From: an uncultured Clostridia bacterium
GTDB taxonomy: Bacteria > Bacillota > Clostridia > Christensenellales > UBA1242
Assembly (NCBI GenBank): GCA_937914725.1
Contig: CALDMJ010000216.1
Span: forward strand, 1-39,215
Reading direction: 5' to 3'
DNA length: 39,215 bases
Positions 8,363-27,872 of this stretch are shown here, in pieces. The position numbers and the translations under genes are program-made. Position 1 is the stretch's first letter. Each line of letters opens with the position of its first letter. The notes beneath the pieces are model-generated. The model saw only the letters and a list, made by a program, of their open reading frames with translations, was not told where the DNA came from and did no database searches.

Positions 8363-8408
8363 ATCACACCTTTTCACATTAGTGTGTTACAAAATGAAAA
8401 AAATATGC

Positions 8409-8430
8409 AAAAAGACTGCGAATGCAGTCT
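8409..8430 (-). terminator. Hairpin plus T-run between sipW and the first TasA-like gene (possible partial terminator or attenuator)
   Basis: Stem agactgc (8413-8419) / gcagtct (8424-8430) with a 4-nt loop. A-run and T-run flank it on both sides. It sits in the 84-nt gap between the sipW stop (8447) and the next start (8362). Confidence 0.5.
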
Positions 8431-8446
8431 TTTTGTTGTTAGATTA

Positions 8447-11119: not shown

Positions 11120-11223
11120 AGACAAAACATTGTCCATTTCGTCTCAACACAATTGCAGTTTCTATACTACAATTGCGGGTTATGTACTCAATATTATTGC
11201 AATTTGCATACTAACAAAAAAGA

Positions 11224-11255
11224 GCAAACAGCGGGGGCGCGCTGTTTGCCTTTTT
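11224..11255. terminator. Bidirectional GC-rich terminator between the convergent gltX and giant gene
   Basis: 10-bp stem gcaaacagcg (11224-11233) / cgctgtttgc (11240-11249). T5 follows on the plus strand and an A-run precedes it, which reads as a T-run on the minus strand. It lies about 115 nt downstream of the giant-gene stop at 11364. Confidence 0.75.
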
Positions 11256-11363: not shown

Positions 11364-14300
11364 TTATGTTTCATATGTTGGAATGGCTGTTTTAGAGCCA
11401 ACTTTTTCAAATGGTTTCGCTCCATCCCAGTTATCTGTATGTACTACTGCCGAATCATCATATTCAGTAGTATTTGAATAAACCTGAGATACAACCCATA
11501 CTTTATCATCTGTTATTCTCCTTTTAGTGGCAAAATCAACCCACTTATCATCAAAATCGCCTAAGTACTGTTTGCACTTCGTATCTCCCTTGTCATTTCC
11601 GTCCAAAATCGATGTGCGAAAATTGCTTATTTGGTGAACGAAATTCCATTTATCCCACGCCCAGGATATAGAACCACCTATTATCCCTCCAGTTTGCCAT
11701 TCAGATAGTATGTCGGTGCCTTTAAAGGGGTCATCGATACTACCTTTTTCGTTTGTAGTAACGTAATAATAGAATTTTACTTCGGTTCTGTCAATATATC
11801 CTATATTATTCCCTTGTCTCCATTCTGCATAATAATTCCAACCTACCCTCCACCCAAATGTGCCCGTTACTTCCGAAGTACTCACAGTAAGGTTTAAAGT
11901 AGGAGACAAGCGTTGACGCTTTGCGACATCGTTCGGGCCTGCGTAAACAACATACTCTTGTGTACCCAATGTTTCTTTTGCAGCGTTAGACGGCAAAACA
12001 ATATAGTCTTTAATAGTTTTCCCACTTTTAAATGACAAAGCCCCAAATCTATTTTTAAGCGAAGTTTCATCCAATCGAATAAACAAGTACATATCCCATT
12101 TTTCATTACTCTTAGTTTGTGTTGCTCTTGAGTAGGTCCCGAGTACAAATTCATCTGGCCAGTTACTAGGAGAAACTGTGGAGAAAAGTAGTTCCTTTCT
12201 ATTCGAATTACTTACCATATTATCCGATGAACTTATGACTACTTCTTTAGTCGTGTGATCTTTTGCCACTGAGCGATATTGGACAAAATTCAAAGCTACG
12301 TCGCTACCGTCAAGTATAGGATTGATTCTCCCGCCTGTCACAAGCCCCTTAAAAGTATTGCTTGTACGCAAAACGTCGAATGAAGTATTCTTATTCCAAT
12401 TCGAGTACGCAACAGTATATTTGCAGTCGGATGCACGAGATTGCAAACTACTTTGGTTATTTGACCTATAGCACGTCGCTTCATTGACATAGAATTCGGC
12501 ACTTTCTTTGTAGGTATACCCGCCGATAGTTGGCGTATTTGTTGTTTTTACCTTGCAGTAATATGCCCCCGGAGCAAATGTTGTGCCTGTCGTGTTGGAC
12601 ATCAAACGACTGAAATCGGCATTGAGTTGTGCTTGTATGTCGGTAACAGTGCCTGTGTATGTTTTGCCTGTTGAAATGCCCGTCGCGGCATTGATAAGTT
12701 CAAGTTCAAATTCAAACGAACCTGCGCTTAGTGTACTTGATTCAAATTTGACACCGTCAGGGTCAGTGAGTTTTCCGACCTCGATTTTGAGTGTAACTTC
12801 ATTTGTGCTTGAAACTTTAATTGTAGCGGTTTTTATACCTGGTACAAACGGAATGAACACGCTTTCGGTTTCATAATCATCCGAATCAAAAATGTAGTCG
12901 TTGTCAGAACTAATGCAGACGAGTGCGGTATATGTACCAGAGTTTTTCACGCCGCTGAATGTGACAGTCGAGCGATATCTCACATCTTTATAAGAGAGTC
13001 CTACGCTTCCAGACTTTTCTCTTCTACTTTCTCTTTCAATTGAGTAGTACATACGGCTCGAATCATATAACCTTTGGACAACTGAGTCACTTCTATAACT
13101 TACATTGAGGCACTCAATTTCCGACTCACTATCGTTTAACACAAGTTCCGCATACTGAGGCTTGAACAATTTGTACTTGACATCAAATGTCCTACTATAC
13201 GAACTTTCGTCAAATTCGACGATGTCACTGCTGACCAAGTTTTCGTACCTATCATATACACCCAAAATTCTCATTGAGAAGTCGTAGCTGCCATAACTTG
13301 GGCTACCGCCAAGCAGGTCACCAATCATTCCTGTGGCGTTTTTAGCGTTGCGACGATAGAACACTGTCAAATCGTTGTTTTGCCCTGAAACAACATTGAT
13401 TGTTGTAGTTTTGCTATTTCCATAGTACTCAACTTCAATCAAAAGTGACCAATTTTGTCTTGCGACATATGCGGTTGTATTCAATGTATAGCGCGACATA
13501 ATTGTTCTTGCTAATTCGCTGCTGTTATTAAATTCGTACTCTGAATATACGTGACTACGATTGCCAGTTGTTGCATACTGCCCACCATAGTACTCGGACT
13601 CCGTGATTGCAAAGTTCGGGAAACCGATATATGCTTTATATGCAAATGAAATTTCGTCTGAATAGTCGGAATCCCAAATATATCCTCTTTCTTCGACGTC
13701 CACATACATTTTAATTTCTGTTTCGCCGACGCTATATCCGCGTTCGTCAAGTTCTTTTTTGACAAAATCATATGGAATGTACAATGTTGTTCCCATTTTG
13801 TACGGGACTACATCCGAGCGCCTTGTTGTGATTGTTCCGCTCGCGATACTCATTGTTGTTGTGTTGCTGCCATTTTGTGATAAATTAACAACAAAGTTAT
13901 ATGGGCTGTTTCCAAGTCGCATATTGACGATGTTTTCAATTCTTGAAAAGTTTGCAATCACAAAGCGTCGGCTGCCGCTATCATATGTGACATTTGGTTT
14001 TACAACCTTATCAAAGCGGCTTGCGTAGCGCGAAACTGAGTTAATTTCGGTCGAATCATAGATATATTCTTCCTTATTTTGCGCATTGGTGATTTTGCTG
14101 TTGTTGTATGCTGAGACGTATAATTGGTAATTAGCGTTCTTTTTCAATACGCCGTCATTGATGACGAATAGGTCAATATAGGCAACATATTTTTTTGTGG
14201 TCGCATCGTATGTGATGACGACTCCATTTGTGCTTGCAATGTAGCTCCCCTGCCATTTCAAAATCTCTATTTTATCCGTTTTTGAGTCACGGATATTTTT

Positions 14301-17300
14301 GTAGTACAGGTAATACTTTTGCGCTTGCGAATCCTGCAAGTAGGCGCGCAAGACGACGTTTCCGCTCATACTTTGCAAACCAGCGGTGCTTTGTCCTATT
14401 GTGTAGTGTAAATATGCAAATGAATCGTCCTTATTATCATTATTGTATATATATGCCACTACGTTTGAGGACGAATTTGCAGTTGCTTCATTAAAAGTTC
14501 CGCCTTGACTGATGCCAATTGATAGATTTACTGGAACAAGCGTCCCTTTCATAATATATGAAAAGTCAAATGGCTGTGAACTTTTTGTTGCGGACGCAAT
14601 TGGCAAATCGCGAATGAGCGCATTTGCGTTGCTTTGTTGGTCAAGTTCGCCAAGCGTTGTAATTGAAATTGCGTACTTATCAGGCAAGCCGCCGTCGATT
14701 AGCACGAGGAATGTCAGTGTGTTTGAATAACTTGTACTATTTTCACAAGGCACATATCTAAATTGCGAATAACTATAACTGCCGCCTGAAACAGAACGCG
14801 TATACAAGTCGTTGGCTGTTACAATTTTTTGACCAGCAATACTATTAACACCATATTCAATTTCATAGCATCTAACAATGCTATAGTTGCTGGCTGAGCC
14901 TGCAACGTATGCGGACGGGTCGGCTTTCAGCAACAAACTCTTTTTGTAGTTGCTGTTGTATTCGGTGCCGACGATGTCTAGTCTATAGGCAAAGTACTTA
15001 TTGTATTGCACATTTTCAAAGCTGAATGTGAAGCCCGCGACGTAGCCGTTTTTGTCGTAGACATTTGTGATTAGCGCACTTTTTACTTGGGCAAGTGTGA
15101 TGATGTAGTTATAAATAAACTCACTTTCGTCACTTTGCGCAAAGTTTTGCTCGCTGATTGAATTGAAATAGATGTTAATTTTATTATTGCTTGGGTATAG
15201 TTTACCAGTGATGTCGATATAGTAATACCCGTCGTTTTCACCGACCACTTTTTCGCCGAGTTTAACAGGCGCTTTAGTATCCTCATTGTACAATTGACGC
15301 TGATTTGCCCCGAGGTTGAACGACGGGTCACCTTGCGTGATTTTGTAGGCAACAAAGATTTGTTGAATATTCTTTTCAATGCCTGCATCCTCAAAATATT
15401 GCGGAATTTTGACCTTTATATACTCACTTCCGTCAATTTCGACAACGGACAAGTCACTTGGCGTGTTGATTTTGACGATATAGTTGTAGATCAATTGTTG
15501 CCCCGCACTTTCGAGATAATAGGTAATTGTTTCATCTGAGTCTGCTGCGGCTGCACCTGTTTTTGCCATACTCTTTAGCGTGAACGTGTAGTTTGCAGGT
15601 CTTTTCATAATTTGGTCGAAGATTTCTGCATTTTCCGTCGAACTAAATGTAATGCTTGTTTTGTTTTGAACGTTCACTGTTGGGATAACTAGCGAAGCGC
15701 CGCGGTTGTAGAGCCCGACGATGTCGAGTTGGTACTCGGCATTGTAGAATTTACTCAATTCCGTTTGCCACTCAAGCACGATTTTGCTCATTCTTGTTGT
15801 GGCGGTTGCTTGACGCACTTGTTCGCTGCCACTCTCATTGTCATAGACTTTGACTGCGACGGAGAGCGATGGCGCGCAATAGAATGTGTCGTGGTCCAAC
15901 GTTTGCGCATCACTGTCAAGCGTATAATTGTTTGCGTTGCCGAGCGCAGTCACGGTGTATGTGTAACGCCCCGGTTCGGCAAACTGCCAAATAATGTGGA
16001 GTTTGCCTTTGTTGTCGCTATACGCAAACGAAACCTTATTATATAGCGCAGTGCCGCTTAGCATATCATATATTCCGCTTTTGCCGACTTTAAAATCAAC
16101 GACATAGTTCATATAGGTTTTGTCATTTGGGTTTATTGTGTCCGATTTGCATTCGGATTGTCCCGTGATTGTCAATCTATAGATTGCATCAACATTATAG
16201 TTGACAACTTTGCGCAGTTCTTGGTCATAGTCAATGACGTTATCGACGTTTGTGATGACAATCTCGACGCCTTTCTTTGCTGAGTCATTGCCCGTCAAGT
16301 TAATATCGAGGTCCTTCACATCAAAAATTGGTGTTTTGATTTTTTTTGCAAACGCTTGTTTCGTGATTGTTACTGTTCCAGACTCGTAATAATATCTTGT
16401 AGGTGAGGCGTTGCACTTTAGGCTGACCGTGTTGTGCCCTGCAAACAAAATGTTTTCAACTTCATAATATAGATATCCGTTTTCGGCAATGATTTTGTCA
16501 GGTGTGAAGTCTTGTGAGTGCTTGCCGCCTTTAGTTTTGTTAGGATCTGTGACAACACCTGTTTCGCCGACGACACCTTCGGAAATTATTGTTACGTTGT
16601 AGGCGTCGATGATGCTATAGTAGTCACGAATGTGTGGGTGGATTGGCTCATCCCACTTTATATAATGTTTACCATCGTCACGCTTAACAAGTTCAAGACC
16701 TGTTGGCGTCATATACCTTAGGTAGTAGTCATAACGCAAGAAGTTGGTTTGATATACTGACTCTAGGTAGTAGCCTTGCTCGGCGGACTTTGCCTTGATG
16801 CTGATTGCACCTGTCATATAGATATTAAAGCCGTCCGCTTGCAGTAGTTCGACGAGCGAGAACGTGAGCGAAATTTTGCGCTCGCCGCCCTCGGTGCGTT
16901 CACTAATTTTCACGCGCGTACTAACATTAACTTGCGCAGTGCCGCCTGTCATATAGCCGCTGGCGGTCACCATTTCTCCGATTAGTTCATTGCTAAACGG
17001 TAGTGTCAAGTAATACTCACGCTGGTTAATGAGCAAAACATAGGTAAATTCGCTTGCGCGGTTTATATATGTTTCGGCAAATTTTACATCAAATGTGAGC
17101 CACATTTCTTGCATTTCAAGCCCTTCGTCATTAATCCTTTCTTTGCCTTCGGTGTCGATGACGAGGAGGCTGAGAGCCAATGTTTCGGCGCGCAATTTAT
17201 GGTCATAGGTGATTGTGACTTCCTTGCTTTCTTTCATCACAAAGTGGACTGTTTTACTATTGACAGTAAACGTTTTTTGATAACCGTTGATTTTTGCAAT

Positions 17301-20300
17301 AACGGTGTATGCACCCGGCTTGCTGTTAATGACACTTGTGACGTCGATTTCAAGCGTTGTGGAGTCATATCTTGTCGCGACGTATTTGTCGTAGGTGCTG
17401 ATTTGCTCCCCTGCTTCGTTGTAGAACGTAAGCGTGTACGTCAAATTTAAGATTTCGTCGCTAGTCATCCCATTGACTTCAAAGTCGTCAAATCTAAAGA
17501 ACTGTTTGTTTCTTTGGTCGTTGTGGTAGATTGTGGCATTTGTCAATGCGATAAACGCTGTGTCATAGTTATATTCGGCGTCATCAGATTGTGAACTGTC
17601 GATGAAGTGTTCCGTATCATTATTTCGCGTGATGACATAGACGATGTTGTCCCCGCCCCACAAGTGTTTTGTGATGTCGATGCCTGTTGTCGATGAAGAA
17701 TGCGCGATTTTGACGATTGAACCATTGTTGAGGTATACTTCGTAGTATAGATTCTTTAAGTATCCGCTTGCATAAACATAATTTAGTTCAGTCACTTTAT
17801 CAAAATCAAGCAAAACCTTGTCGCCGCTTTCGTAGATGCGCAAATTTTTGACGGCGTCAAGTTTGATAACGACGTCGTATGTTTCAATAGCGGCGTCTTT
17901 TGACTCGTCAAATGCGCCGTTTGCGCTAGCATAGACGTAGATGCGCCAAGCACCTGCCTCGCATACAATGTCGGTGAGGTCGCGGGTCATTGTGTTGATG
18001 TCGGGGATTTCTTCCGCCAAAATTTCTTCGCCGTCGAGGATATAGTAGACTACGATTTTGTATGTTTGCACTCCCAATGTTACGCGATTTGCACTAGCAA
18101 GTGCGCTGAACGCTTCAAAGTTTTGCGGCGCTGACCACGATGCTATTAGGTTTGTTCCGCTGTCCGAGAGCACAAAACTTGTTGGTGCAGAGAACTGCAA
18201 AGTGTAATCGAACTTGTAAAGTGTTGAGTCACTGTTTGAGAGCCCGTAGACTGAATCGGTTGCGATGAGTCTAATTTCATAGTCGTCTTTTGGCATTTTG
18301 TTTTGGAAAAGTGCGGATATGTCGTACTTTTCTTGTCCCGCAGGCAATGTTGAAACCTTGGCGTTGTCAATCCAAAGTTCATAACTTGTTGCAAAGTCGA
18401 CTTGACGGAACGACAGCCAAATGTGGTAGTTTGTGCCGTCCGCAATTTGCGTTTTGTCGTCTTGCTCAATCAATATATCTTCGACATTTTGGAGTTTGAA
18501 CGTAAAGTTTGACATTGCGGTGCTATAGTATGTATCGAGATAGTACGCACCGAGGTCGCCGACTATTCTAAGGACAAATAGGTTTTTACCGCCGATATTC
18601 AAGAATTTTGCATTGATGTCGATATATCCGCTTGAGTAGGCAAACGTTTCGCCATTTTCAAGGTACAACTGACTGTTGATACGCAAGGAATATAGACTTG
18701 CGGTGCTAATTTCACTAAATCTCAATCTCACGAACGGTGTATTGCCGATTTGAGATGCCGACAAACTTGGATCGTCGTGAATGTGGTAGTTTGTAAACTC
18801 ATAAGGTTCACTTTCCGCACTTTCGAGGCTTGACCTTGTTTCGGCGACCTTGATTGTGGCAAGGTACACGCCGCCGTCGATGTATTTCAACACGTCCGTT
18901 ATATCTGCGGTGCAGTTGCCGTTAGATATATCAAGGTCATTGACGGAAAGCTCGATTGTTTTGATTTCGGTTTTCGCTTCGTCATTTGAATAGAACTTAA
19001 TGATATATTTTTCCGCGCCACTGACTTGCCCAAATTTTGCGTAGTAACTTAGTGTTGTTGGGTATTCATCGATATTATATTCGTAGACAATTTCAAGCCC
19101 GAGCGGCACTTCAAACTGCCCTTTATAGCGGTAAGTAGCATATTTTGTATATGTGCTTTCGCCTGTGATATATGCGCCGTCGCCGTTGGTTTTTGCCCAA
19201 ACGGTGTATGTGCCATAACCATTATTCGGGTCTTTGAACAAATTAATGAGGTCAAAATACGTCTTGTTTGTTGTATATTCACCAACAAATGCACCGTCCT
19301 TTTCAACTTTGACTCCATACATTTTTGCGCCTTCAACTTCATTCCACTGCGCATAAATGCGAGTTGCGAGTGTGGCAACATCACCGTTTGAAATAATTTC
19401 AACCCATTCGACACCGCCAAGTTCCATACGGTTATAGTAATCTTCGCTTTCGCCCCAATCACTGTCTTTGTGGTAGGTGTCGCCAAGCGCTTTTGCGCGC
19501 GCGGTGTAGGCGCCGTATTGTGGACTGCTAAAGTCGATATAGGCATCCGTATTTAATGTATATGTTTGTGTGAAACTATTAATTTTGAGTTCAAGTTCAT
19601 AGCCTGTAGCAAATGCAATGTTTGAAACTTGAATTCTCAAACTGCCGTCCACTTGCTTGATAAACTCAACCGTTGGTGCGCTAAGCGCGACAGTCCATTC
19701 AAAATCGTATTCCGTATTTGGTGATTTTGCGTAGACGACCTCCCCATTTTCGCCAAGGACTTCGTTTGCGCAAAGCTTGATGTTGTAAATGTCGTATTCG
19801 TCGGTAAATTCGTCAATCATTGCGCTGAATGTGACAATGATTGAATCGGCACCGATTTGCGCATTCACGTTTTCAACGTTGATGACAGCATTATAGATAA
19901 TTGCGCCCTTGCTTTGTCTTGTAACAAGCAGAGTATAATCTTCGGCATTGAGGACTTTGCTGAAGATAATTTCCAAGTTCTTGCTTTCCGTCATTGTTAT
20001 TTTTTCAATGATTGGCGCGGAAAGTTCGCTGCCGAGCGTTGACATATTGACAGTTTTTTCGTCCGAATTATTATAGTACGCGAGGTCGCGGATTGCAGCA
20101 GCCCTTTCGGTATCCGAAAGTTCGGTGCTGTCCTTATAATCTTGCACGCTATCAAATGCGCCGAGAATTGTTGCGACAACCTTATAATACTTTGCGTTTG
20201 CAAGACCCTCAATTTTAAATTCGGTTTGCTTGCTAATTATTTGGAGGACGGCTTCTTGCCCCTCTTCAATGTCGCTGTCGATACTATCGATTTCGTAGAA

Positions 20301-23300
20301 AGCGTATTTTATAAGCGCGCTTTCATAAATTGCGCCTTCAGGCTTTGTGATAACAATATAGTTTTCAATTTGTCCGTTCTCATTTTTGCGCTTATCGACG
20401 TTGAGTGACACGAGCGCGTCAAGTTTCACGGTATAGAACACAGTCAATTCGTTTGACCAGTCGGAATCGTCCCAATATACTCCGTCGCCGAGTTCTTTGA
20501 CTTTGATTTTGTAAATTCCAAGCCCTGTGATTTCCATTGTGTTGGTAAGATTGATGATTGTTGACTGGATGTTTTCATATACAAGAGATTTTGTTGCACT
20601 GCCTGAGAGAGCACTTTCGCTTTCGTAGTACTCTATGTCTAATGTATAGCCTGTTCCATCGCCTTGCCCAATGATTGTCAATTTGTGCGTTTCTTGGTCA
20701 AACGTGATTGTTGGCGCGGCGAGGGCGTGCGTGAGATAGAAGTCGTAGGTTGTGTACAAACTATCATAGTAGTACCCTGTTGCGTTGACGCGGACGCCGA
20801 GCAAGAATTTGCCTGTTGTTCTATCGCCGATGACTTCCGTGAGGTCGAAACGGTTTTCGGTAACGTCGTTAGCAATCAAGTGCTCGTCCACTGAGAATGA
20901 GTATGTTTCAGCGTATGGAACAACATCCCAAACAGCGTAATACTTTCCGTCCACATTTTCGACTGTCAAGTTTGCTGGTGGTGTGAACTTGAGCCACAAT
21001 TCGTATGGCAAACTGTTGCTTGGTTCGCTTTCAAGGAAGTAGTCGTATGTTTCGGCAACAACTGCGATGTCGTATTTATTTGCGCCTTTGAAAGCGCTAA
21101 GTTCCGTCTTGATGTCGACTGTGATTTCCGCTTCCCCGTTGTCGGCGATGCCCGTTTTGATCTTTGTCCAAACATTTTCGGTTGGAAGTTTTGCGACGAT
21201 TGCGTAAGATTTTGCGTTGTTGCTTGTAGCAAACTTTGCTTCGACGCGGTTATTTCTACCGATGACGGAGATTAGGACTGGCGAATCAAGTTGCACGTAT
21301 TTCGTGTATGTATATGTGACTAGTTGCGACGGGTCAACCATATTTTTGTGCGAGAAGCTTTGCACTTCAAAGTCATAGAAGCCGTCGCCGTACACTTTAA
21401 TATATTCGCGCAAGTTTACGACGCTCAATTTGAATGAGTCGTCCGTAACTTCAATAAGCGTGTAGGTGATTGCTTTGTTTCTAAATGTGAGTTTTAGGTA
21501 TTCAAACTCCATTCGCACATCACTTGTCCACGACACTTCTTGCAAGACGTCGTCATACTTAAAGTTCGTTGGGTCGGCGAGTTTGATGCGGATTTCCGCC
21601 GTCACTGGCGTTGACCACGCGGAGTTGCCGAGGAACAATTCCTCGACTTTGCGCGTCATTGCGCTAATTGTGAATTTTCCGACGCCGCCGAGACTTGCAA
21701 TTGTTGTTGAAAGGTCTGCCCTTTCTTCATTGACAATAATATCATTTGAGACAAAACTACCGTCGTTTTGTTCAATGCTGACGCGAATTGTGTAGCCGTT
21801 GAGCGCTGTTTCAGCGCCAGTGAAGGTTAAAACCTTTGTTTCGTTGTTAAAGGTTAGGTTTGTTGGCGTTGGCTGCTTATCAAAGTACGCATATTCAGCA
21901 ACATTTGAGTATGAGGAATAGATAATTGGCGTTTCTGTGACTTCGGGTTGCTCAAGCACGGCGCGGACGCGCACTTCGTACTTGCCAAAGCCTTTGCTTT
22001 CTAAATATTCTGTAATGTCGCAGTTAGTTTTTACTGTTCCTTTGCTAAATTTAGTCGAAAGGACTTCAAAACTTGCGTTTGCTAGTTCGACAACTTGTTT
22101 TGTGCCGTCGACTGTTTGCAATTCGTGCGTTTTTCTAATTTCAACCTTATAATACTCGGCAAAACGCGTTGTTGTGAATGTTGCGTAGTAATGTACGCCG
22201 TCGTCGAGCGTTTGTTCGGTTACTTCGACGTCATTTGGCGCTTTCAAGATTGGCGTGTAGTCATATTCCTCTGCTTTGCTTGGGTCTGAATTTTCATAGT
22301 ACCCTACGCCGACTGCGGTGAGGACAATTTTGTTTTTGCCTGCCGAAATGATTGAATAGATGTCGCAGGTTGTTAGGCGCGACGTCATAATACTAATTGC
22401 GCCTGAAACTTCGCTTTCGATGCTAATGAGATAGTTAGTTGCATTTTCAACTTGCGTGAAGTAGAGCAAGACACTTTCTTCATCAACATTGTCGACCATA
22501 ACAAATCGCGGCGTTTGCAGTTTGATTTTGTTTTCAAACATCGCAACTGCGCTAAATTTACTATCCTTGTATCCAGCAGTTGCTACTTCGTCAGTGACAT
22601 TGCCGACGCATTTTACTTTAGCCGAATACTTTTTCGCGACAGTCAATGGTTCAAACTCAAAGATACTGGCATATAGACTTGAAATATCAACTTCAAATGC
22701 TACAGTTTGATTTTCGTCATCGACTGTGCTTGTCACAAATTGCGAGTAATCTGGGTTTGTCACAATGTTTGCGTATTCAACGCCGTCAAACCACAAAACA
22801 TAGTCACTTGCGCGGTAATCGCCACTAAATGAGAATATCATTGTGTTTGTTTCGCCGATTGAGCGTTTGTAGAGCGCAACATTTGTTGGCGTGTTCAAGA
22901 CGATTTGGTGCGAATATTCCGCCGTCGTTTCTTCCGATGCGCGGAAGTAGCCGCACGCATTGACGGTTATTGCAATTTTGTATGTTGTTGGTTGCGTGAA
23001 AATTGCTGAGGTGTCAAGAATTGTATCATAGACAACTTCGTTGTAGATTTCGTTGTCGTTTTCGTCAAGAATTACAACTGTATAGCCATTTTTCGGCGCA
23101 AACTTGACATCCCCTACCACATTTTGCGCTATTGCTGTAAATGTCAAATATTTTCCGTTTTCCAGAACTTCGATATTTTGAACCGGTGCGAATTGGTCGA
23201 GGACATTTAATTCAAGCACTGCACTAAAGTCACTTGTGAGGTAATAGCCGTATCCGTTGGCTTTGACCCTAATTCTAAAGTCACCGCCGATTGCGTCTTC

Positions 23301-24455
23301 AAGGTCTCGGCGCAAATTGATTTCGTTTGCGGTAGTATTCTTTTGGAAGAATGTGGTGCCCTCGCCATTAACAAGTTCGACCGTATAACTATACGCGTGC
23401 GGAACGGCGTCCCAACTAAACCACACAAGTTCGCCGTTCATTTGGTAGCGGAGTCCGTTTGGCATTGAAAGTTGTTGATAGACGTCAAAAGTAAGTGTTT
23501 CTGAATTTTCGCTTGCCAAGTACCAAATCACTTCTTCGTCTAGTCCTTGTGATTGGACATTGTTTGCGTAGACGTAAACCTCATATTCACCGATATCGTC
23601 GACATCTTGCGCGCTAAAATATATGTAGTTCGACGAAATTGGGGAAAATTTTTTTGGCTCAAGATTGCCGTGTGACAAAACCACTGTGTAGGTTTGCGCA
23701 TTTTCTACTGCGTCCCACGCAAGTTTTTTGTCCGCTTGGCTATAAATAAGATTGGTTGGAGCATTGAGCCTACCTTTCAAGCTATGCTCGACTGCAACTG
23801 AGGATGGCGATTGATTGATGAATTCGTTTTCAGCGATTGCTTTGACTGAGAATGAGTAGTTCTTTGTATAGTCAACCACAACGTCGCTGATGTCAAACTC
23901 AGTCTTGCTGACGATTGCTGTTGTCGCGGTGGAAATGTCGGCATTTTCGATAATCGTAACTTCGTACATATCCGCTCCGTCAACTTGAACCCACACGAGT
24001 TTTGCATCGTACTTATCAATTTCCGCAATTGGCTGCGCGAGAGTTTTTGTAACAACAAAGTCATCCGCAAAAATAACATCACTGTTTTTAAAACCATTGT
24101 CGGCAATTGCTTGCACGGAGATTGCATACTTCTTTGGCGATTCGACAAGGTTTGTGATGTCGATGTTCAAATCGTCCGCACCAACTTGAACGACATTATT
24201 GTCGATGCTATAGCGGTAGGCGCTGGCGTTTTTGACCTTATCAAACTTAAGGTACACATTGTCGCCCAACTTTTCTACCCTGACATTTGCTGGGTTATCT
24301 AGTTGGATGCGCGTTTGGTACGATGTTTGGAAATATATAAAAAGCCCTAATCCTGCGACCATAATCAGAAGCGCCAAAACACTCAGTGACTTTAGCCACA
24401 TTTCGCGAACCTTTATTCTTTTTTCAATTTTTGCTCTTGATTCAATCTCACTCAT
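11364..24455 (-). CDS. Giant (4363 aa) N-terminally membrane-anchored surface protein: tandem FN3-like modules plus a unique C-terminal domain
   Basis: Uninterrupted ORF from the track. ATG at 24455 has AGAGG 6 nt upstream. Residues 21-42 (LKSLSVLALLIMVAGLGLFIYF) are the only obvious hydrophobic helix. No LPXTG motif or C-terminal anchor is visible. The body is a periodic module of about 100 aa carrying the W-x-x-V-x-x-A-x-x-Y-x-V signature. Confidence 0.9.
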   Translation of the reverse strand: MSEIESRAKIEKRIKVREMWLKSLSVLALLIMVAGLGLFIYFQTSYQTRIQLDNPANVRVEKLGDNVYLKFDKVKNASAYRYSIDNNVVQVGADDLNIDITNLVESPKKYAISVQAIADNGFKNSDVIFADDFVVTKTLAQPIAEIDKYDAKLVWVQVDGADMYEVTIIENADISTATTAIVSKTEFDISDVVVDYTKNYSFSVKAIAENEFINQSPSSVAVEHSLKGRLNAPTNLIYSQADKKLAWDAVENAQTYTVVLSHGNLEPKKFSPISSNYIYFSAQDVDDIGEYEVYVYANNVQSQGLDEEVIWYLASENSETLTFDVYQQLSMPNGLRYQMNGELVWFSWDAVPHAYSYTVELVNGEGTTFFQKNTTANEINLRRDLEDAIGGDFRIRVKANGYGYYLTSDFSAVLELNVLDQFAPVQNIEVLENGKYLTFTAIAQNVVGDVKFAPKNGYTVVILDENDNEIYNEVVYDTILDTSAIFTQPTTYKIAITVNACGYFRASEETTAEYSHQIVLNTPTNVALYKRSIGETNTMIFSFSGDYRASDYVLWFDGVEYANIVTNPDYSQFVTSTVDDENQTVAFEVDISSLYASIFEFEPLTVAKKYSAKVKCVGNVTDEVATAGYKDSKFSAVAMFENKIKLQTPRFVMVDNVDEESVLLYFTQVENATNYLISIESEVSGAISIMTSRLTTCDIYSIISAGKNKIVLTAVGVGYYENSDPSKAEEYDYTPILKAPNDVEVTEQTLDDGVHYYATFTTTRFAEYYKVEIRKTHELQTVDGTKQVVELANASFEVLSTKFSKGTVKTNCDITEYLESKGFGKYEVRVRAVLEQPEVTETPIIYSSYSNVAEYAYFDKQPTPTNLTFNNETKVLTFTGAETALNGYTIRVSIEQNDGSFVSNDIIVNEERADLSTTIASLGGVGKFTISAMTRKVEELFLGNSAWSTPVTAEIRIKLADPTNFKYDDVLQEVSWTSDVRMEFEYLKLTFRNKAITYTLIEVTDDSFKLSVVNLREYIKVYGDGFYDFEVQSFSHKNMVDPSQLVTYTYTKYVQLDSPVLISVIGRNNRVEAKFATSNNAKSYAIVAKLPTENVWTKIKTGIADNGEAEITVDIKTELSAFKGANKYDIAVVAETYDYFLESEPSNSLPYELWLKFTPPANLTVENVDGKYYAVWDVVPYAETYSFSVDEHLIANDVTENRFDLTEVIGDRTTGKFLLGVRVNATGYYYDSLYTTYDFYLTHALAAPTITFDQETHKLTIIGQGDGTGYTLDIEYYESESALSGSATKSLVYENIQSTIINLTNTMEITGLGIYKIKVKELGDGVYWDDSDWSNELTVFYTVKLDALVSLNVDKRKNENGQIENYIVITKPEGAIYESALIKYAFYEIDSIDSDIEEGQEAVLQIISKQTEFKIEGLANAKYYKVVATILGAFDSVQDYKDSTELSDTERAAAIRDLAYYNNSDEKTVNMSTLGSELSAPIIEKITMTESKNLEIIFSKVLNAEDYTLLVTRQSKGAIIYNAVINVENVNAQIGADSIIVTFSAMIDEFTDEYDIYNIKLCANEVLGENGEVVYAKSPNTEYDFEWTVALSAPTVEFIKQVDGSLRIQVSNIAFATGYELELKINSFTQTYTLNTDAYIDFSSPQYGAYTARAKALGDTYHKDSDWGESEDYYNRMELGGVEWVEIISNGDVATLATRIYAQWNEVEGAKMYGVKVEKDGAFVGEYTTNKTYFDLINLFKDPNNGYGTYTVWAKTNGDGAYITGESTYTKYATYRYKGQFEVPLGLEIVYEYNIDEYPTTLSYYAKFGQVSGAEKYIIKFYSNDEAKTEIKTIELSVNDLDISNGNCTADITDVLKYIDGGVYLATIKVAETRSSLESAESEPYEFTNYHIHDDPSLSASQIGNTPFVRLRFSEISTASLYSLRINSQLYLENGETFAYSSGYIDINAKFLNIGGKNLFVLRIVGDLGAYYLDTYYSTAMSNFTFKLQNVEDILIEQDDKTQIADGTNYHIWLSFRQVDFATSYELWIDNAKVSTLPAGQEKYDISALFQNKMPKDDYEIRLIATDSVYGLSNSDSTLYKFDYTLQFSAPTSFVLSDSGTNLIASWSAPQNFEAFSALASANRVTLGVQTYKIVVYYILDGEEILAEEIPDINTMTRDLTDIVCEAGAWRIYVYASANGAFDESKDAAIETYDVVIKLDAVKNLRIYESGDKVLLDFDKVTELNYVYASGYLKNLYYEVYLNNGSIVKIAHSSSTTGIDITKHLWGGDNIVYVITRNNDTEHFIDSSQSDDAEYNYDTAFIALTNATIYHNDQRNKQFFRFDDFEVNGMTSDEILNLTYTLTFYNEAGEQISTYDKYVATRYDSTTLEIDVTSVINSKPGAYTVIAKINGYQKTFTVNSKTVHFVMKESKEVTITYDHKLRAETLALSLLVIDTEGKERINDEGLEMQEMWLTFDVKFAETYINRASEFTYVLLINQREYYLTLPFSNELIGEMVTASGYMTGGTAQVNVSTRVKISERTEGGERKISLTFSLVELLQADGFNIYMTGAISIKAKSAEQGYYLESVYQTNFLRYDYYLRYMTPTGLELVKRDDGKHYIKWDEPIHPHIRDYYSIIDAYNVTIISEGVVGETGVVTDPNKTKGGKHSQDFTPDKIIAENGYLYYEVENILFAGHNTVSLKCNASPTRYYYESGTVTITKQAFAKKIKTPIFDVKDLDINLTGNDSAKKGVEIVITNVDNVIDYDQELRKVVNYNVDAIYRLTITGQSECKSDTINPNDKTYMNYVVDFKVGKSGIYDMLSGTALYNKVSFAYSDNKGKLHIIWQFAEPGRYTYTVTALGNANNYTLDSDAQTLDHDTFYCAPSLSVAVKVYDNESGSEQVRQATATTRMSKIVLEWQTELSKFYNAEYQLDIVGLYNRGASLVIPTVNVQNKTSITFSSTENAEIFDQIMKRPANYTFTLKSMAKTGAAAADSDETITYYLESAGQQLIYNYIVKINTPSDLSVVEIDGSEYIKVKIPQYFEDAGIEKNIQQIFVAYKITQGDPSFNLGANQRQLYNEDTKAPVKLGEKVVGENDGYYYIDITGKLYPSNNKINIYFNSISEQNFAQSDESEFIYNYIITLAQVKSALITNVYDKNGYVAGFTFSFENVQYNKYFAYRLDIVGTEYNSNYKKSLLLKADPSAYVAGSASNYSIVRCYEIEYGVNSIAGQKIVTANDLYTRSVSGGSYSYSQFRYVPCENSTSYSNTLTFLVLIDGGLPDKYAISITTLGELDQQSNANALIRDLPIASATKSSQPFDFSYIMKGTLVPVNLSIGISQGGTFNEATANSSSNVVAYIYNNDNKDDSFAYLHYTIGQSTAGLQSMSGNVVLRAYLQDSQAQKYYLYYKNIRDSKTDKIEILKWQGSYIASTNGVVITYDATTKKYVAYIDLFVINDGVLKKNANYQLYVSAYNNSKITNAQNKEEYIYDSTEINSVSRYASRFDKVVKPNVTYDSGSRRFVIANFSRIENIVNMRLGNSPYNFVVNLSQNGSNTTTMSIASGTITTRRSDVVPYKMGTTLYIPYDFVKKELDERGYSVGETEIKMYVDVEERGYIWDSDYSDEISFAYKAYIGFPNFAITESEYYGGQYATTGNRSHVYSEYEFNNSSELARTIMSRYTLNTTAYVARQNWSLLIEVEYYGNSKTTTINVVSGQNNDLTVFYRRNAKNATGMIGDLLGGSPSYGSYDFSMRILGVYDRYENLVSSDIVEFDESSYSRTFDVKYKLFKPQYAELVLNDSESEIECLNVSYRSDSVVQRLYDSSRMYYSIERESRREKSGSVGLSYKDVRYRSTVTFSGVKNSGTYTALVCISSDNDYIFDSDDYETESVFIPFVPGIKTATIKVSSTNEVTLKIEVGKLTDPDGVKFESSTLSAGSFEFELELINAATGISTGKTYTGTVTDIQAQLNADFSRLMSNTTGTTFAPGAYYCKVKTTNTPTIGGYTYKESAEFYVNEATCYRSNNQSSLQSRASDCKYTVAYSNWNKNTSFDVLRTSNTFKGLVTGGRINPILDGSDVALNFVQYRSVAKDHTTKEVVISSSDNMVSNSNRKELLFSTVSPSNWPDEFVLGTYSRATQTKSNEKWDMYLFIRLDETSLKNRFGALSFKSGKTIKDYIVLPSNAAKETLGTQEYVVYAGPNDVAKRQRLSPTLNLTVSTSEVTGTFGWRVGWNYYAEWRQGNNIGYIDRTEVKFYYYVTTNEKGSIDDPFKGTDILSEWQTGGIIGGSISWAWDKWNFVHQISNFRTSILDGNDKGDTKCKQYLGDFDDKWVDFATKRRITDDKVWVVSQVYSNTTEYDDSAVVHTDNWDGAKPFEKVGSKTAIPTYET
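12477..24296 (-). repeat. Array of roughly 35-40 diverged FN3-like modules of about 100 aa (protein-level repeat)
   Basis: Recurrent module starts have the form L-x-x-P-x-N-[LV]. The second-strand signature recurs: LVWVQVDGADMYEVTI, LAWDAVENAQTYTVVL, FSWDAVPHAYSYTVEL, AVWDVVPYAETYSFSV, AQWNEVEGAKMYGVKV, LYFTQVENATNYLISI. I counted at least 29 modules in the first approximately 2900 residues. I spotted no long near-identical DNA repeats by eye. Confidence 0.65.
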
Positions 24456-24558
24456 ACTAAACCTCTTTTGTATTTTGCAAAAACGTTATGATATTTTGCG
24501 CATTTTTTAAATTAGTAATCACAAACTTATAAAAATATTATTTTTATAGCTTATTTAA

Positions 24559-24588
24559 AGTTTACCAAATATCGACACAAAAAGTCAA
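24559..24588 (-). promoter_or_regulatory. Candidate promoter of the giant gene
   Basis: On the minus strand: TTGACT (24588-24583), an 18-nt spacer ending in TGG, then TAAACT (24564-24559). It lies downstream of a terminator-like hairpin and about 100 nt upstream of the ATG. Confidence 0.4.
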
Positions 24589-24606: not shown

Positions 24607-24634
24607 AAAAAAAGGTGTGATTTTTTCCACCTTT
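24607..24634 (-). terminator. Weak terminator-like hairpin after the 367-aa gene
   Basis: 7-bp stem aaaggtg/caccttt (24611-24617 / 24628-24634) with a 10-nt loop, followed by a T-run on the minus strand. The stem overlaps the stop codon and is AT-rich, so it is weak. Confidence 0.35.
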
Positions 24635-25736
24635 AATTTGACTTTGTTTCGGGGCTGCGCAGTTTATAAGATTTCAGAAAATCTTTCAATTCCTCAATAT
24701 GCCCTGTTTTATCAATTTTGTTGACAAGTTCGACAAATTCACTGCGCGTCACTTCTAGTAACCTTTGCGATTCGTCTAGTTTTTGTTTGAGCGCTTGATT
24801 TTCACATTTTATGATTTCAAGTTTTCGCGTGTTTGCACCGAGTCGAGCGAGCATTTCTTTTAAATTGGCATTTGCAAGTGAACATTCATCGCGAAGCGCT
24901 TTGGGCGCATTTTCGATTGCGCTGCGCTTGACCATTTTGACAAGTCCCATAAACAAATTATTGATATCGGCATCCGTCAAAGTTTGGGATTTTGGCATTC
25001 GTAGAATCTTTGCATCGGGTTCATTGCGCGTGATTTCACACAATGTGCCTTCACGATTTAAATTTACATTTTGGGGCGTAGTTATTTTCGTCATTTTTTG
25101 TTGACTTGTGCCGTTTTTTTCATTGCTTTGCAAAATATTGTTTTTTTCACTTCTTGCGGTTATACTGTTATTTTTTGTCACTTTCCCCTTGTTTTTTGCA
25201 AGAATACTACCATTTTTTGCAAGCAATTGATTATTTCGATGTATAAATTTAGTGGTATTGTCAAGTGTTTTTTTGAGATTAATTTTACTTAGTTGCGAAA
25301 CCGTATTTTCCTCTTTTTGTGGGATACTCTTTTCATAATTCAGTCCCAATTTCAACAAATATTTTGGATTGCTTTTCAACAAACTGCGATATTTATTTTG
25401 CAGGCGCAGCATCATTTTCGCGTCACCACAACTCACGTTATAGCACGCTTGGCGCACCGATTTTGTGCGGTTTACTTCACTGACAAGTTCACGCATAGTT
25501 GCTTTAAGTTCTGTTTCCTTGAAATGCTTACACTTTTCAATGTTAAATGCGCCTTGCAATTTGTATTGTTTTACTGCGCTATAATATAGGTTGCGGACTG
25601 TTTCACATTTTAGATCGTGTTGCATTGCAAAAACTTTGAATGCACGCAAACGCGGCATATGTGCCTCGTCCGTTTGTTTGATATATTCAAATAGTTGTCG
25701 TATTCTTTTTTGCATTTGGTCGTGTTTGATACTCAT
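24633..25736 (-). CDS. Hypothetical protein; possible Myb/SANT-like (RsfA-like) helix-turn-helix N-terminus, N/K/T-rich linker and C-terminal coiled coil
   Basis: I prefer the ATG at 25736 (MSIKHDQ..., GAGGTG RBS) over the track start at 25757. RLRAFKVFAMQHDLKCETVRNLYYSAVKQYK resembles the RsfA/Myb pattern (AF..A..L.RT...C..RW....K.QY) as I remember it. The C-terminal region LKEMLARLGANTRKLEIIKCENQALKQKLDESQRLLE is heptad-like. Confidence 0.7.
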   Translation of the reverse strand: MSIKHDQMQKRIRQLFEYIKQTDEAHMPRLRAFKVFAMQHDLKCETVRNLYYSAVKQYKLQGAFNIEKCKHFKETELKATMRELVSEVNRTKSVRQACYNVSCGDAKMMLRLQNKYRSLLKSNPKYLLKLGLNYEKSIPQKEENTVSQLSKINLKKTLDNTTKFIHRNNQLLAKNGSILAKNKGKVTKNNSITARSEKNNILQSNEKNGTSQQKMTKITTPQNVNLNREGTLCEITRNEPDAKILRMPKSQTLTDADINNLFMGLVKMVKRSAIENAPKALRDECSLANANLKEMLARLGANTRKLEIIKCENQALKQKLDESQRLLEVTRSEFVELVNKIDKTGHIEELKDFLKSYKLRSPETKSN

Positions 25737-25911
25737 TATCTTCACCTCTAAATGCAATTATTGACACTTAAAAATTATATATACACTATAAAAGACTTGA
25801 GACGGCAAGTATTATAATAAGCAGAATCATTATGTGTCGCTGATTATAACAATTTTTTGTCTAGTAACGCAAATGTATTTACTTTTGCTACTTTTTTGCA
25901 AAGTTAAATAT

Positions 25912-26916: not shown

Positions 26917-26963
26917 ATAAAACCTCATTAAATTTATATGTTTGCAAAATTGCGAATATTCAT

Positions 26964-26992
26964 TTGTAGTTTTCGCAATTTTTTGGTATAAT
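26964..26992 (+). promoter_or_regulatory. Candidate promoter of the first YugP-like gene
   Basis: TTGTAG (26964-26969), a 17-nt spacer ending in TGG, then TATAAT (26987-26992). GGAGA RBS precedes the ATG at 27010. Confidence 0.5.
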
Positions 26993-27009
26993 ATTTCAAT
27001 GGAGAAAAA

Positions 27010-27732: not shown

Positions 27733-27794
27733 TATTTTAAGATTTGCGTCAATATTTAACATTTCTATCAATTTTAAATAATTTTTTAAAAAAC

Positions 27795-27823
27795 ACTACA
27801 TTTTTCAAAAAATGTGCTATAAT
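27795..27823 (+). promoter_or_regulatory. Candidate extended -10 promoter of the second YugP gene
   Basis: TGC-TATAAT at 27815-27823. The -35 is poor (ACTACA). Confidence 0.4.
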
Positions 27824-27872
27824 ATGGCATCATAAATATATTATTATTTCATATAATAAACAAGGAGAGTTT

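What the first reader, a model, noticed from the sequence alone, without database searches (positions are those of the whole stretch)
11364..24455. 13.1-kb single ORF: N-terminally anchored protein made of about 35-40 diverged FN3-like modules
**Seen in sequence.**
- The reading frame is uninterrupted for 4363 codons, with a good RBS, its own candidate promoter and a strong downstream terminator.
- There is one hydrophobic helix, at residues 21-42.
- I found no lipobox, no LPXTG motif and no C-terminal anchor.
- The body shows a roughly 100-aa periodicity with the FN3-like W..V..A..Y.V signature repeated dozens of times.
- The modules are strongly diverged at the DNA level.

**Inference.**
- This would be a type-II-anchored extended stalk with its C-terminal domain at the tip.
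- I assume about 3-4 nm per beta-sandwich module, which would make the stalk on the order of 100 nm or more.
- That is the reverse of the usual sortase or S-layer anchoring of Gram-positive adhesins.
- Proteins of this size are rare, and this architecture is not one I can assign to a named family.
Basis: partly seen in the sequence, partly recalled or inferred. Interest (0 to 1): 0.8.

Follow-up and report, generated by a model that had tools for sequence, protein, structure and literature searches.

The report
Giant membrane-anchored FN3-like surface stalk protein
An uncultured gut Clostridia bacterium encodes a real 491-kDa protein, held in the membrane by one N-terminal helix and built largely of fibronectin-III-like beads; relatives keep the same bead number and order, but its function is unknown and it resembles known giant surface adhesins.

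Summary
The ORF is real: 4363 codons on the minus strand (11364-24455), one N-terminal hydrophobic helix, no lipobox, LPXTG or RTX motif, and no DNA-level repeats. Ten orthologues (4268-4456 aa, 35-81% identity) from independently assembled gut MAGs are collinear end to end and under purifying selection, so it is neither an artefact nor a pseudogene.

The FN3 reading is confirmed for one module: AlphaFold pLDDT 94, with Foldseek matches to EpoR, IFNAR1, tissue factor and Dscam FNIII. About 25 such modules are recognisable by sequence, all in residues 52-2405. The C-terminal 45% shows only weak sequence traces of the module pattern. Two further beta-sandwich modules (residues 3760-3990) are moderately supported. 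The last ~370 residues are unresolved, so no distinct tip domain was shown.

Pfam, NCBIfam and PDB sequence searches give nothing above threshold.

Three features stand out:
- Module number and order are fixed across deep divergence.
- Conservation falls towards the C-terminus.
- The best-conserved segment lies mid-stalk (residues 2400-2800).

Best reading: an uncleaved signal-anchored surface fibril of roughly 130-150 nm, probably for adhesion or contact. It is a new variant of a known kind, of moderate interest.

The parts
11364..24455 (-). Giant gene: 4363 codons plus stop, 491 kDa, pI 4.7
   Evidence: Intact orthologous ORFs in loci L001-L007. dN/dS is 0.03-0.39 in the 200-codon windows where it could be computed.
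24462..24467 (-). Shine-Dalgarno-like AAGAGG, 6 nt before the ATG
   Evidence: Read directly from the sequence.
24559..24588 (-). Promoter-like TTGACT-18-TAAACT with TG extension. Not above chance.
   Evidence: 2 sites found against 1.8 expected in shuffles.
11223..11250 (-). Intrinsic-terminator-like hairpin (11 pairs, 6 G-C) followed by a T-run, 114 nt after the stop. It is two-way, facing gltX as well.
   Evidence: 5 sites against 0.5 expected. Sequence shown.
24387..24455 (-). Residues 1-23: conserved, positively charged cytoplasmic tail (MSEIESRAKIEKRIKVREMWLKS)
   Evidence: K+R is 7 against 3 after the helix. Invariant R7, E11, I14, K15, E18, W20 and K22 in four orthologues.
24330..24386 (-). 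Residues 24-42: the single hydrophobic helix, read as an uncleaved signal anchor
   Evidence: Kyte-Doolittle maximum 2.55. Same position in all 9 full-length orthologues. Invariant G35, G37 and Y41.
17241..24302 (-). Residues 52-2405: array of about 25 canonical FN3-like modules of ~90-125 aa. Consensus: P.nL.v...l.[WF]..V..A..Y.v.i...DIt.ll..G.Y.i.VkA.g..gY.dSd.S...y.y
   Evidence: Twenty-three modules reach hhalign probability above 95% and residues 959-1052 reach 85%. Residues 1345-1477 are assigned only by eye.
23193..23471 (-). Residues 329-421: the module that was modelled and shown to have an FN3 fold
   Evidence: AF2 pLDDT 94.4, pTM 0.84, seven strands. Foldseek hits EpoR, IFNAR1, tissue factor, Dscam FNIII and integrin beta4 FnIII at TM 0.7-0.8.
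15876..17240 (-). Residues 2406-2860: the best-conserved segment, lying mid-stalk. It holds the two most conserved peptides, GLEM[QS]EMW and [HY]Y[IL]KWDEP. It reads by eye like the module pattern with insertions.
   Evidence: 72-82% identity to P0001 over residues 2401-2800 against 60% overall. Patterns chosen. 70% mean column identity. Only weak module matches. Marginal Ig C-domain hit at E 0.05.
13179..15875 (-). Residues 2861-3759: beta-rich region with no significant match to the canonical module. One internal paralogy links 2979-3114 to 2562-2698.
   Evidence: (95.5% probability).
12486..13178 (-). Residues 3760-3990: two further beta-sandwich modules, moderately supported
   Evidence: AF2 tile, pLDDT mostly 58-85 here. 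Foldseek hits to tandem FNIII arrays such as neogenin FN5-6 and titin. HMM hit at 3908-3987, E 6e-10.
11367..12485 (-). Residues 3991-4363: fastest-evolving, Trp-rich distal end. Structure unresolved. The last ~180 aa show module-type start and end motifs around a variable insertion.
24633..25757 (-). Conserved upstream neighbour (374 aa, no family match). Role unknown.
   Evidence: Adjacent to the giant gene in L001-L006, 44-82% identity. No Pfam or NCBIfam hit.

Best explanation
The gene encodes a genuine chromosomal cell-surface protein of an uncultured gut Clostridia lineage.

**Shown or strongly supported**
- A short, conserved, positively charged N-terminal tail stays in the cytoplasm.
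- One conserved hydrophobic helix acts as an uncleaved signal anchor, N-in and C-out.
- About 4300 residues lie outside the cell.
- The outer part begins with about 25 tandem FN3-fold beta-sandwich modules.

**Partly supported**
- The chain continues as larger, more diverged beta-sandwich modules to the C-terminus.

**Inferred**
- There are about 38 modules in total. At 3.5-4 nm each, that gives a rod of roughly 130-150 nm projecting from the membrane.
- The membrane-distal, Trp-rich, fast-evolving end would contact variable external partners such as glycans, particles or other cells.
- The conserved proximal and mid-stalk parts would provide anchoring and fixed geometry.
- Each module is individually conserved, so the stalk is a defined structure of fixed length rather than an expandable repeat.
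For: **Real gene**
- Intact ORFs of 4268-4456 aa occur in independent assemblies.
- The gene has no DNA repeats.
- dN/dS is 0.03-0.39 in all windows where it could be computed.
- It sits in conserved chromosomal synteny between p374 and gltX, with argS, serS and tex nearby.
- No relative was found in viral contigs.

**Anchor**
- There is a single hydrophobic segment.
- Charge follows the positive-inside rule in all orthologues.
- The N-terminal 100 residues are 84% identical to P0001 against 60% overall, with invariant residues in the tail and helix.
- The SipW-type signal-peptide model did not match the protein.

**FN3 modules**
- HMM and hhalign detect the repeat.
- AF2 gave pLDDT 94 with Foldseek hits to FNIII domains.
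- Distant homologues carrying the same module reach the Pfam fn3 cut-off, for example P0018 at 41.5 bits.
- Residues 3760-3990 are predicted as beta-sandwiches that match tandem FNIII arrays.

**Exposed distal end**
- Identity to P0001 falls from 84% at the N-terminus to 33-56% over the last 360 residues.
- dN rises from 0.02-0.05 to 0.5-0.6.
- Trp is enriched in the last 190 aa in 8 of 10 orthologues.

**Fixed architecture**
- Nine full-length orthologues, down to 35% identity, show no internal gap longer than 48 columns.
Against: - No binding or catalytic domain was identified anywhere, so the adhesion role is by analogy only.
- The best-conserved segment is mid-stalk (residues 2400-2800), not the tip. 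A simple tip-adhesin model does not predict this.
- Residues 2400-3760 and 3990-4363 are not shown to be beta-sandwiches. The AF2 tile had mean pLDDT 47, and profile matches to the module are below 85% probability.
- Topology and lack of cleavage were judged from hydropathy, charge and conservation. No dedicated predictor and no experiment were used.
- The host's envelope type is unknown.
Confidence: 0.55

Rival explanations
1. The protein is a fixed-length spacer, tether or ruler rather than an adhesin. The stalk would set or hold a defined distance, for example by tethering an outer sheath or S-layer-like coat, a partner cell or a matrix. The conserved mid-stalk segment would be the docking site for a conserved partner.
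For: - Module number and order are strictly conserved down to 35% identity, with no module-sized indel. Typical repeat adhesins vary in copy number.
- The highest conservation lies at residues 2400-2800, including the most conserved peptides of the whole protein.
- The neighbourhood encodes other envelope or matrix proteins in conserved synteny: a SipW-like peptidase, a candidate SipW substrate and a second giant lipoprotein.
Against: - No partner is known.
- The steep fall in conservation and the Trp-rich variable end fit an exposed interaction surface better than a purely structural spacer.
- The two models are not exclusive.
Confidence: 0.2
2. The N-terminal helix is a long cleavable signal peptide. 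The ~480-kDa product would be released by signal peptidase I or the neighbouring SipW-like enzyme to form extracellular matrix fibres, like TasA-type biofilm components.
For: - A SipW-like archaeal-type signal peptidase gene lies about 2 kb away (TIGR02228, E 2e-26). Next to it is a protein with a weak SipW-type signal-peptide match.
- This cluster is syntenic in L002, L003, L004 and L007.
- One orthologue (L004) has L-Q-A directly after the helix, which could be a cleavage site.
Against: - The tail and helix are among the better-conserved parts, with invariant residues. That is unusual for a discarded leader.
- The residues after the helix (QTSYQTR, QTSGESR, NRVAWET) give no conserved small-x-small site.
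- TIGR04088 does not match the giant protein.
- The sipW cluster is separated from the giant gene by the oppositely oriented gltX and by a terminator.
Confidence: 0.12
3. The long ORF is an artefact: a collapsed or chimeric repeat assembly, a mis-called frame, or a decaying pseudogene.
For: The window is a single short MAG contig of 39215 bases.
Against: - Seven further loci from different samples and assemblers carry intact collinear ORFs.
- The gene contains no DNA repeats that could collapse.
- Purifying selection acts along the gene wherever dN/dS could be computed.
- The start codon and N-terminus are conserved.
Confidence: 0.01

Closest known systems
FN3 (fibronectin type III) domain arrays: Pfam PF00041/E-set, e.g. 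titin A-band FnIII tandems and cytokine-receptor ectodomains
   Same: - Seven-strand beta-sandwich of ~90-100 aa.
- Tandem head-to-tail arrangement with short Pro-containing linkers.
- Each module is individually diverged and positionally conserved between orthologues, as in titin (the titin comparison is from general knowledge).
   Different: - The Pfam fn3 model does not reach its cut-off on this protein. The best E-set-type hit is Tissue_fac at 18.7 bits against a cut-off of 27.
- The protein is bacterial and anchored by an N-terminal signal anchor.
- No kinase, receptor or other partner domains are present.
Giant non-fimbrial adhesins of diderm bacteria built of tandem Ig-like modules: SiiE, LapA, MpIBP, and the surface filament SprB
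   Same: - Size of hundreds of kDa.
- A rod of tens of beta-sandwich modules, expected to reach about 100-200 nm.
- The distal end is thought to make contact.

These points come from general knowledge and the SiiE review PMC6272769, which appeared in the listing but which I did not read in full.
   Different: - Those proteins are exported by type I or type IX secretion, are held at an outer membrane, and often carry RTX/Ca2+ motifs and near-identical repeats.
- Here there is no GGxGxD motif, no C-terminal secretion signal was identified, the host is annotated as Clostridia (a Firmicutes class; its envelope type was not examined), and there is an N-terminal membrane helix.
- The modules are only 13-32% identical to each other.
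Sortase- or C-terminally anchored giant Gram-positive surface proteins: SasG/Aap, Ebh, Mub
   Same: Firmicutes surface proteins with long repeat stalks that are thought to project a functional region beyond the wall (general knowledge).
   Different: - There is no LPXTG-like motif or C-terminal hydrophobic segment, so polarity is reversed: N-terminus at the membrane.
- The repeats are not homogenised at the DNA level.
- Copy number is fixed between species.
Distant homologues found here: Firmicutes lipoproteins of 650-1400 aa with the same FN3-like modules, many carrying a C-terminal transglutaminase-like core (P0009-P0014)
   Same: - The same module type, 26-31% identity over several modules.
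- Also extracytoplasmic and membrane-tethered at the N-terminus.
   Different: - They are tethered by a lipobox Cys rather than a helix.
- They are 3-6 times shorter.
- They carry Transglut_core, E 1e-9 to 1e-16, which the giant protein lacks.

Membership tests
FN3 fold / Pfam fn3 (PF00041) | Seven-stranded beta-sandwich of ~90-100 aa that superposes on solved FNIII domains | tested here: met
   AF2 model of residues 329-421: pLDDT 94.4, seven strands. Foldseek against PDB gave 24 hits at E<=1e-3, all FNIII or cytokine-receptor type, TM 0.6-0.8.
FN3 fold / Pfam fn3 (PF00041) | Match to the Pfam fn3 HMM above the gathering score | tested here: not met
   fn3 was not reported on the 4363-aa protein even at E<=1. 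The best related hit is Tissue_fac at 18.7 bits against a cut-off of 27. Distant homologues with the same module do reach it: P0018 41.5, P0014 25.9 and P0015 25.5 bits against a cut-off of 25.
FN3 fold / Pfam fn3 (PF00041) | The whole ectodomain is made of such modules (the claim of 35-40) | tested here: inconclusive
   About 25 modules are detected in residues 52-2405. Two more are moderately supported at 3760-3990. Residues 2405-3760 and 3990-4363 give only weak in-register matches and low-confidence models.
Sortase-anchored LPXTG surface proteins | C-terminal LPXTG-like motif followed by a hydrophobic segment and a positively charged tail | tested here: not met
   No [LSN]P.[TSA][GANS] motif in the last 80 aa of the protein or of 9 orthologues. 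No hydrophobic window outside residues 18-46.
Bacterial lipoproteins | Lipobox [LVI][ASTVI][GAS]C at the end of the signal peptide | tested here: not met
   No lipobox in the first 60 aa of any orthologue. The second giant ORF in the window does have one, LSAC.
RTX / type I-secreted giant adhesins (SiiE, LapA type) | GGxGxD nonapeptide repeats | tested here: not met
   No GGxGxD anywhere in the ten orthologues.
RTX / type I-secreted giant adhesins (SiiE, LapA type) | BIg-type modules matching the corresponding Pfam families | tested here: not met
   No Pfam Big or RTX family hit.
RTX / type I-secreted giant adhesins (SiiE, LapA type) | Adjacent type I secretion genes (ABC transporter, membrane fusion protein) | tested here: not met
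   The neighbouring genes that were scanned gave tRNA-ligase, peptidase and unknown-function matches only, with no ABC transporter or membrane-fusion family.
Cell-wall-binding or S-layer anchored proteins (SLH, CWB2, LysM, SH3b, choline-binding) | Presence of one of these wall-binding modules | tested here: not met
   None reported by Pfam at E<=1 or by NCBIfam at E<=0.1.
Cellulosomal scaffoldins | Cohesin, dockerin or CBM modules | tested here: not met
   No such Pfam hit.
Type II (signal-anchor) membrane protein | A single N-terminal hydrophobic helix with more positive charge on the N-terminal side | tested here: met
   One helix at residues ~24-42. K+R is 6-9 before it against 2-4 after it in nine orthologues.
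Type II (signal-anchor) membrane protein | The anchor is not cleaved, so the helix is retained in the mature protein | not testable with these tools
   The evidence is indirect: strong conservation of residues 1-50 and no conserved cleavage motif. No signal-peptide predictor and no proteomics were available.

The most novel reading that the evidence does not exclude
The protein is a bacterial extracellular molecular ruler or tether, comparable to titin. It would be a membrane-anchored rod whose length (~38 positionally unique modules, ~130-150 nm) is itself the selected trait. The highly conserved mid-stalk segment (residues 2400-2800) would dock a conserved envelope or partner structure at a fixed distance from the membrane. 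The fast-evolving Trp-rich end would engage variable external ligands. That would imply an unrecognised, geometrically defined outer compartment or cell-cell junction in an uncultured gut Clostridia lineage.
Probability: 0.15. Interest if true: 0.75.

Novelty: new variant of a known kind. Interest (0 to 1): 0.45.

Why it matters
- Giant beta-sandwich surface proteins are a known kind. This orthogroup is unannotated and matches no curated family. Among the named giant surface proteins compared here, none combines its three features:
  - an N-terminal signal anchor;
  - non-homogenised modules;
  - strictly fixed module number and order across species that share only 35% identity.
- It appears to be a stable part of the genome in a deep-branching, uncultured gut lineage seen in Hadza and other human-gut MAGs. 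It takes 13 kb of what may be a small genome.
- If the stalk is a surface fibril of fixed length, it offers three things:
  - a handle on how these organisms contact mucus, particles or other cells;
  - a natural example of length control in an extracellular protein;
  - a target for surface capture or enrichment of the organism.
- If it is simply an adhesin, the result is a useful annotation and little more.

Tried and rejected
- **Word-index protein searches failed for this family.**
  - The whole protein timed out.
  - The C-terminal 563 aa and the N-terminal 520 aa each returned 8000 candidates with none scoring.
  - The protein and its relatives are nevertheless in that collection, so those negatives mean nothing. 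The exhaustive representative search found the family.
- **Exact look-up** of the protein on contigs found nothing on record.
- **Curated libraries gave nothing above cut-off.** This covers Pfam, NCBIfam and PDB sequence searches on the whole protein, and profile searches of the tip (A5) and mid-stalk (A6) against PDB and Pfam.
Rerun with 4 rows, it gave mean pLDDT 47, so the tip stays unresolved.
- **Finding a second module type in the C-terminal half.** All-against-all hhalign of ortholog windows found only one paralogous pair, 2562-2698 and 2979-3114. Iterating from that pair recruited nothing more.
- **Phage or mobile origin** is rejected: no relative in viral contigs and conserved housekeeping synteny.
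- **Literature searches** found no description of this family. The giant-gene preprint 10.1101/2023.11.21.568195 describes different architectures: many transmembrane helices, SecA-like, dockerin and RCC1 domains.
- **Taxonomy** could not be refined beyond the record titles. ArgS relatives outside the clade are at most 50% identical and mostly unnamed.
Full report
**1. The observation**

The window has one uninterrupted frame at 11364..24455 on the minus strand: ATG start, 4363 aa, 491 kDa, pI 4.7. AAGAGG lies 6 nt upstream of the ATG.

A strong hairpin with a T-run follows the stop at 11250-11223. That region has 5 terminator-like sites against 0.5 expected. The proposed promoter (24588-24559) matches 9 of 12 positions with a TG extension, but such matches are as common in shuffled sequence: 2 against 1.8.

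Only one segment is hydrophobic enough for a membrane helix, residues ~24-42. The next-highest Kyte-Doolittle window reaches only 1.17. There is no lipobox, no C-terminal LPXTG-like motif and no RTX motif, in this protein or its orthologues. The gene contains no DNA-level repeats.

**2. The repeat**

Tile-against-tile BLASTP shows many weak matches of 22-47% identity at varied offsets. An HMM built from 10 hand-picked modules found further, non-seed modules at conditional E of 1e-3 to 1e-8. After iteration, 22 modules score strongly, 21 of them in residues 52-2400 and one at 3908-3987.

Profile-profile comparison of ortholog alignments with the module profile gave:
- above 95% probability for 23 modules in residues 52-2392. 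Many of these belong to the reference alignment, so that part is partly circular;
- 85% for residues 959-1052, which were not in the reference;
- below 85% everywhere after residue 2400.

The strict W..V..A..Y.V signature occurs five times. A relaxed form occurs 24 times against 6.7 expected, nearly all before residue 2300. The only nearly invariant position is the Tyr of A..Y.

So the periodicity is real. It is demonstrated for about 25 modules in the N-terminal 55% of the protein, not for 35-40.

In the C-terminal half:
- Weak in-register matches to the last strands of the module recur just before Pro-containing linkers.
- One paralogous pair exists, 2562-2698 and 2979-3114, at 95.5% probability.
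- Iterating from that pair recruited nothing further.
- Counting linker-like motifs by eye suggests 13-14 larger modules of 105-185 aa, for a total near 38. This count is inference.

**3. Fold**

AlphaFold2 of residues 329-421, using the 22 paralogous modules as the alignment, gave pLDDT 94.4, pTM 0.84 and seven strands. Foldseek against the PDB returned FNIII and cytokine-receptor domains at TM 0.6-0.8: IFNAR1, EpoR, tissue factor, Dscam FNIII1, integrin beta4 FnIII and monobodies.

Pfam's fn3 model does not reach threshold on the protein. The best related hit is Tissue_fac at 18.7 bits against a cut-off of 27. Distant homologues carrying the same module do reach it.

Its mean pLDDT was 47. 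Residues ~3760-3990 mostly reached 58-85 and are beta-rich. The whole-tile search returned tandem FNIII arrays such as gp130, titin A84-A86 and neogenin FN5-6. I give this weight only for the confident part.

**4. The C-terminal end**

I found no separate tip domain. The ortholog alignment of the last ~420 aa is poorly conserved. It does show a module-type linker (KRQRL.aP.N), a Y.V.W strand, and the closing motif SNTaEYdDS that ends canonical modules, with a long variable Gly- and Trp-rich insertion between. Profiles of this region match nothing in PDB or Pfam.

The last 190 aa are Trp-enriched, 3-5% against 0.7-0.8% elsewhere, in 8 of 10 orthologues. The Trp positions are not conserved.

**5. 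Relatives and evolution**

An exhaustive search of 1.84 billion representatives with the first 1200 aa found 123 proteins. Three are collinear giants:
- P0001: 4368 aa, 60% identical over the full length.
- P0002: 4456 aa, 45%.
- P0003: 4268 aa, 35%.

A scan of GTDB species representatives found seven loci in MAGs titled uncultured Clostridia, Eubacteriales or Lachnospiraceae bacterium, from Hadza and other gut samples. All carry intact ORFs of 4.3-4.5 thousand codons unless cut by a contig end.

Pairwise identities span 34-81%. In nine full-length orthologues the longest internal gap is 48 columns, and all gaps of 25 columns or more lie after residue 3394. Module number and order are therefore fixed.

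The protein evolves faster than its housekeeping neighbours:

| Locus | Giant protein | Neighbours |
|---|---|---|
| L002 | 81% | 93-98% |
| L003 | 59% | 77-89% |
| L004 | 45% | 71% |

It is nevertheless under purifying selection wherever dN/dS could be computed, at 0.03-0.39. dN rises from 0.02-0.05 at the N-terminus to 0.5-0.6 in the last 150 residues. dS is near saturation, so these ratios are rough.

Identity to P0001 along the protein is:
- 84% in residues 1-100;
- 72-82% in residues 2401-2800;
- 33-56% after residue 4000.

The two most conserved peptides of the whole protein, GLEM[QS]EMW and [HY]Y[IL]KWDEP, lie mid-stalk.

**6. Context**

The contig is chromosomal. It carries gltX, argS, serS, tex, a U32 peptidase and two Zn-peptidase paralogues. 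A 374-aa protein with no family match is the conserved upstream neighbour.

Beyond gltX lie a SipW-like signal peptidase, two small secreted or membrane proteins, and a second very large lipoprotein ORF that runs off the contig. This arrangement is syntenic in L002 and L003.

No relative occurs in viral contigs. ArgS is 62-92% identical within the clade and at most 50% identical to anything else in the collection. The host is therefore a deep, uncultured lineage.

**7. Mechanism**

Shown or strongly supported:
- It is a real gene.
- It has a single N-terminal helix with positive charge on the N-terminal side in all orthologues.
- The tail and helix are conserved.
- It has an array of FN3-fold modules.

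Inferred:
- The helix is an uncleaved signal anchor.
- About 38 modules form a rod of about 130-150 nm, assuming 3.5-4 nm per module (general knowledge of FN3 dimensions).
- The variable Trp-rich distal end makes external contacts.

The fixed module number and the conserved mid-stalk segment are not predicted by a plain adhesin model. They motivate the rival ruler or tether reading. Release after cleavage by SPase I or the nearby SipW-like enzyme is possible but disfavoured. Artefact and pseudogene readings are excluded.

**8. Comparison and novelty**

- **Fold:** the modules are FN3-like. The structural criterion is met and the Pfam threshold is not.
- **What it works like:** the protein most resembles giant rod-like surface adhesins such as SiiE, LapA, SprB, SasG and Ebh.
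- **Membership:** it fails the defining features of each of those families. It has no T1SS or RTX features, no LPXTG, no C-terminal anchor and no wall-binding modules.
- **Repeat behaviour:** its repeats are neither homogenised nor variable in number.
- **Nearest sequence relatives outside the orthogroup:** much shorter lipoproteins with the same modules plus a transglutaminase-like core.
- **Literature:** I found no paper describing the family.

I rate it a new variant of a known kind, of moderate interest. The interesting parts are the fixed architecture and the conserved mid-stalk. The main weakness is that function is by analogy and 45% of the protein is structurally unresolved.

Noticed in passing
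window 3-6341 (- strand; open frame continues past the left end of the window): A second very large ORF of at least 2113 aa starts MKKLYALLITFLIGVACTLSACGSP, a lipoprotein signal with lipobox LSAC. It gives only a sub-threshold Big_2 hit (15.9 bits) and has a central region of GG[IV]xGxN-type repeats. The ORF listing does not show it because it runs off the contig. It is conserved downstream in L002 (88%) and L003 (58%).
   Followed up: partly
window 6765-9292 (- strand): A cluster with three genes. One is an archaeal-type/SipW-like signal peptidase I (8447-9292; TIGR02228, E 2e-26). One is a 191-aa protein with a weak SipW-dependent signal-peptide match (7802-8377). One is a 308-aa protein with an Ala/Pro/Lys-rich N-terminus and one helix (6765-7691). 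The layout resembles a tapA-sipW-tasA-type matrix operon. It is syntenic in L002 and L003, and sipW also in L004 and L007.
   Followed up: partly
window 24633-25757 (- strand): A 374-aa protein with no Pfam or NCBIfam match lies immediately upstream of the giant gene in the window and in L001-L006 (44-82% identity). It might be a regulator or partner; its function is unknown.
   Followed up: partly
window 25912-27399 (- strand) versus 27010-27732 (+ strand): The 495-aa ORF with a TTG start overlaps the Zn_peptidase_2 gene on the other strand by 390 nt. Only about 345 aa are open in L002 and 370 aa in L003. Its 5' end is therefore probably over-extended, and the real protein likely starts near MRFYMKTIAV.
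   Followed up: partly
window 27010-28595 (+ strand): Two adjacent paralogous Zn_peptidase_2 (PF04298) membrane-protein genes in tandem: 240 aa and 283 aa.
   Followed up: no
window 31725-33461 (argS) and the clade as a whole: ArgS relatives fall into a tight group at 62-92% identity (about 15 clusters). Identity then drops abruptly to 50% or less for everything else among 5.8 billion proteins, and almost none of those carry names. The host lineage is deep-branching and uncultured. Record titles say only uncultured Clostridia, Eubacteriales or Lachnospiraceae.
   Followed up: partly
window 11364-14855 (residues ~3200-4363 of the giant protein): Synonymous divergence from L001 is about 0.3-0.9 over residues 1-3200 but about 0.8-1.7 afterwards. 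This could mean the distal third has been exchanged by recombination between lineages. The NG86 estimates are near saturation, so this is only a hint.
   Followed up: no
tool behaviour (versus 42, 46): The word-index homology search returned 8000 candidates with none scoring for two parts of the giant protein. Yet the protein, a cluster-mate more than 90% identical and 35-60% identical orthologues are all in that collection. Negative results from that tool on compositionally common beta-rich repeats should not be read as absence.
   Followed up: yes
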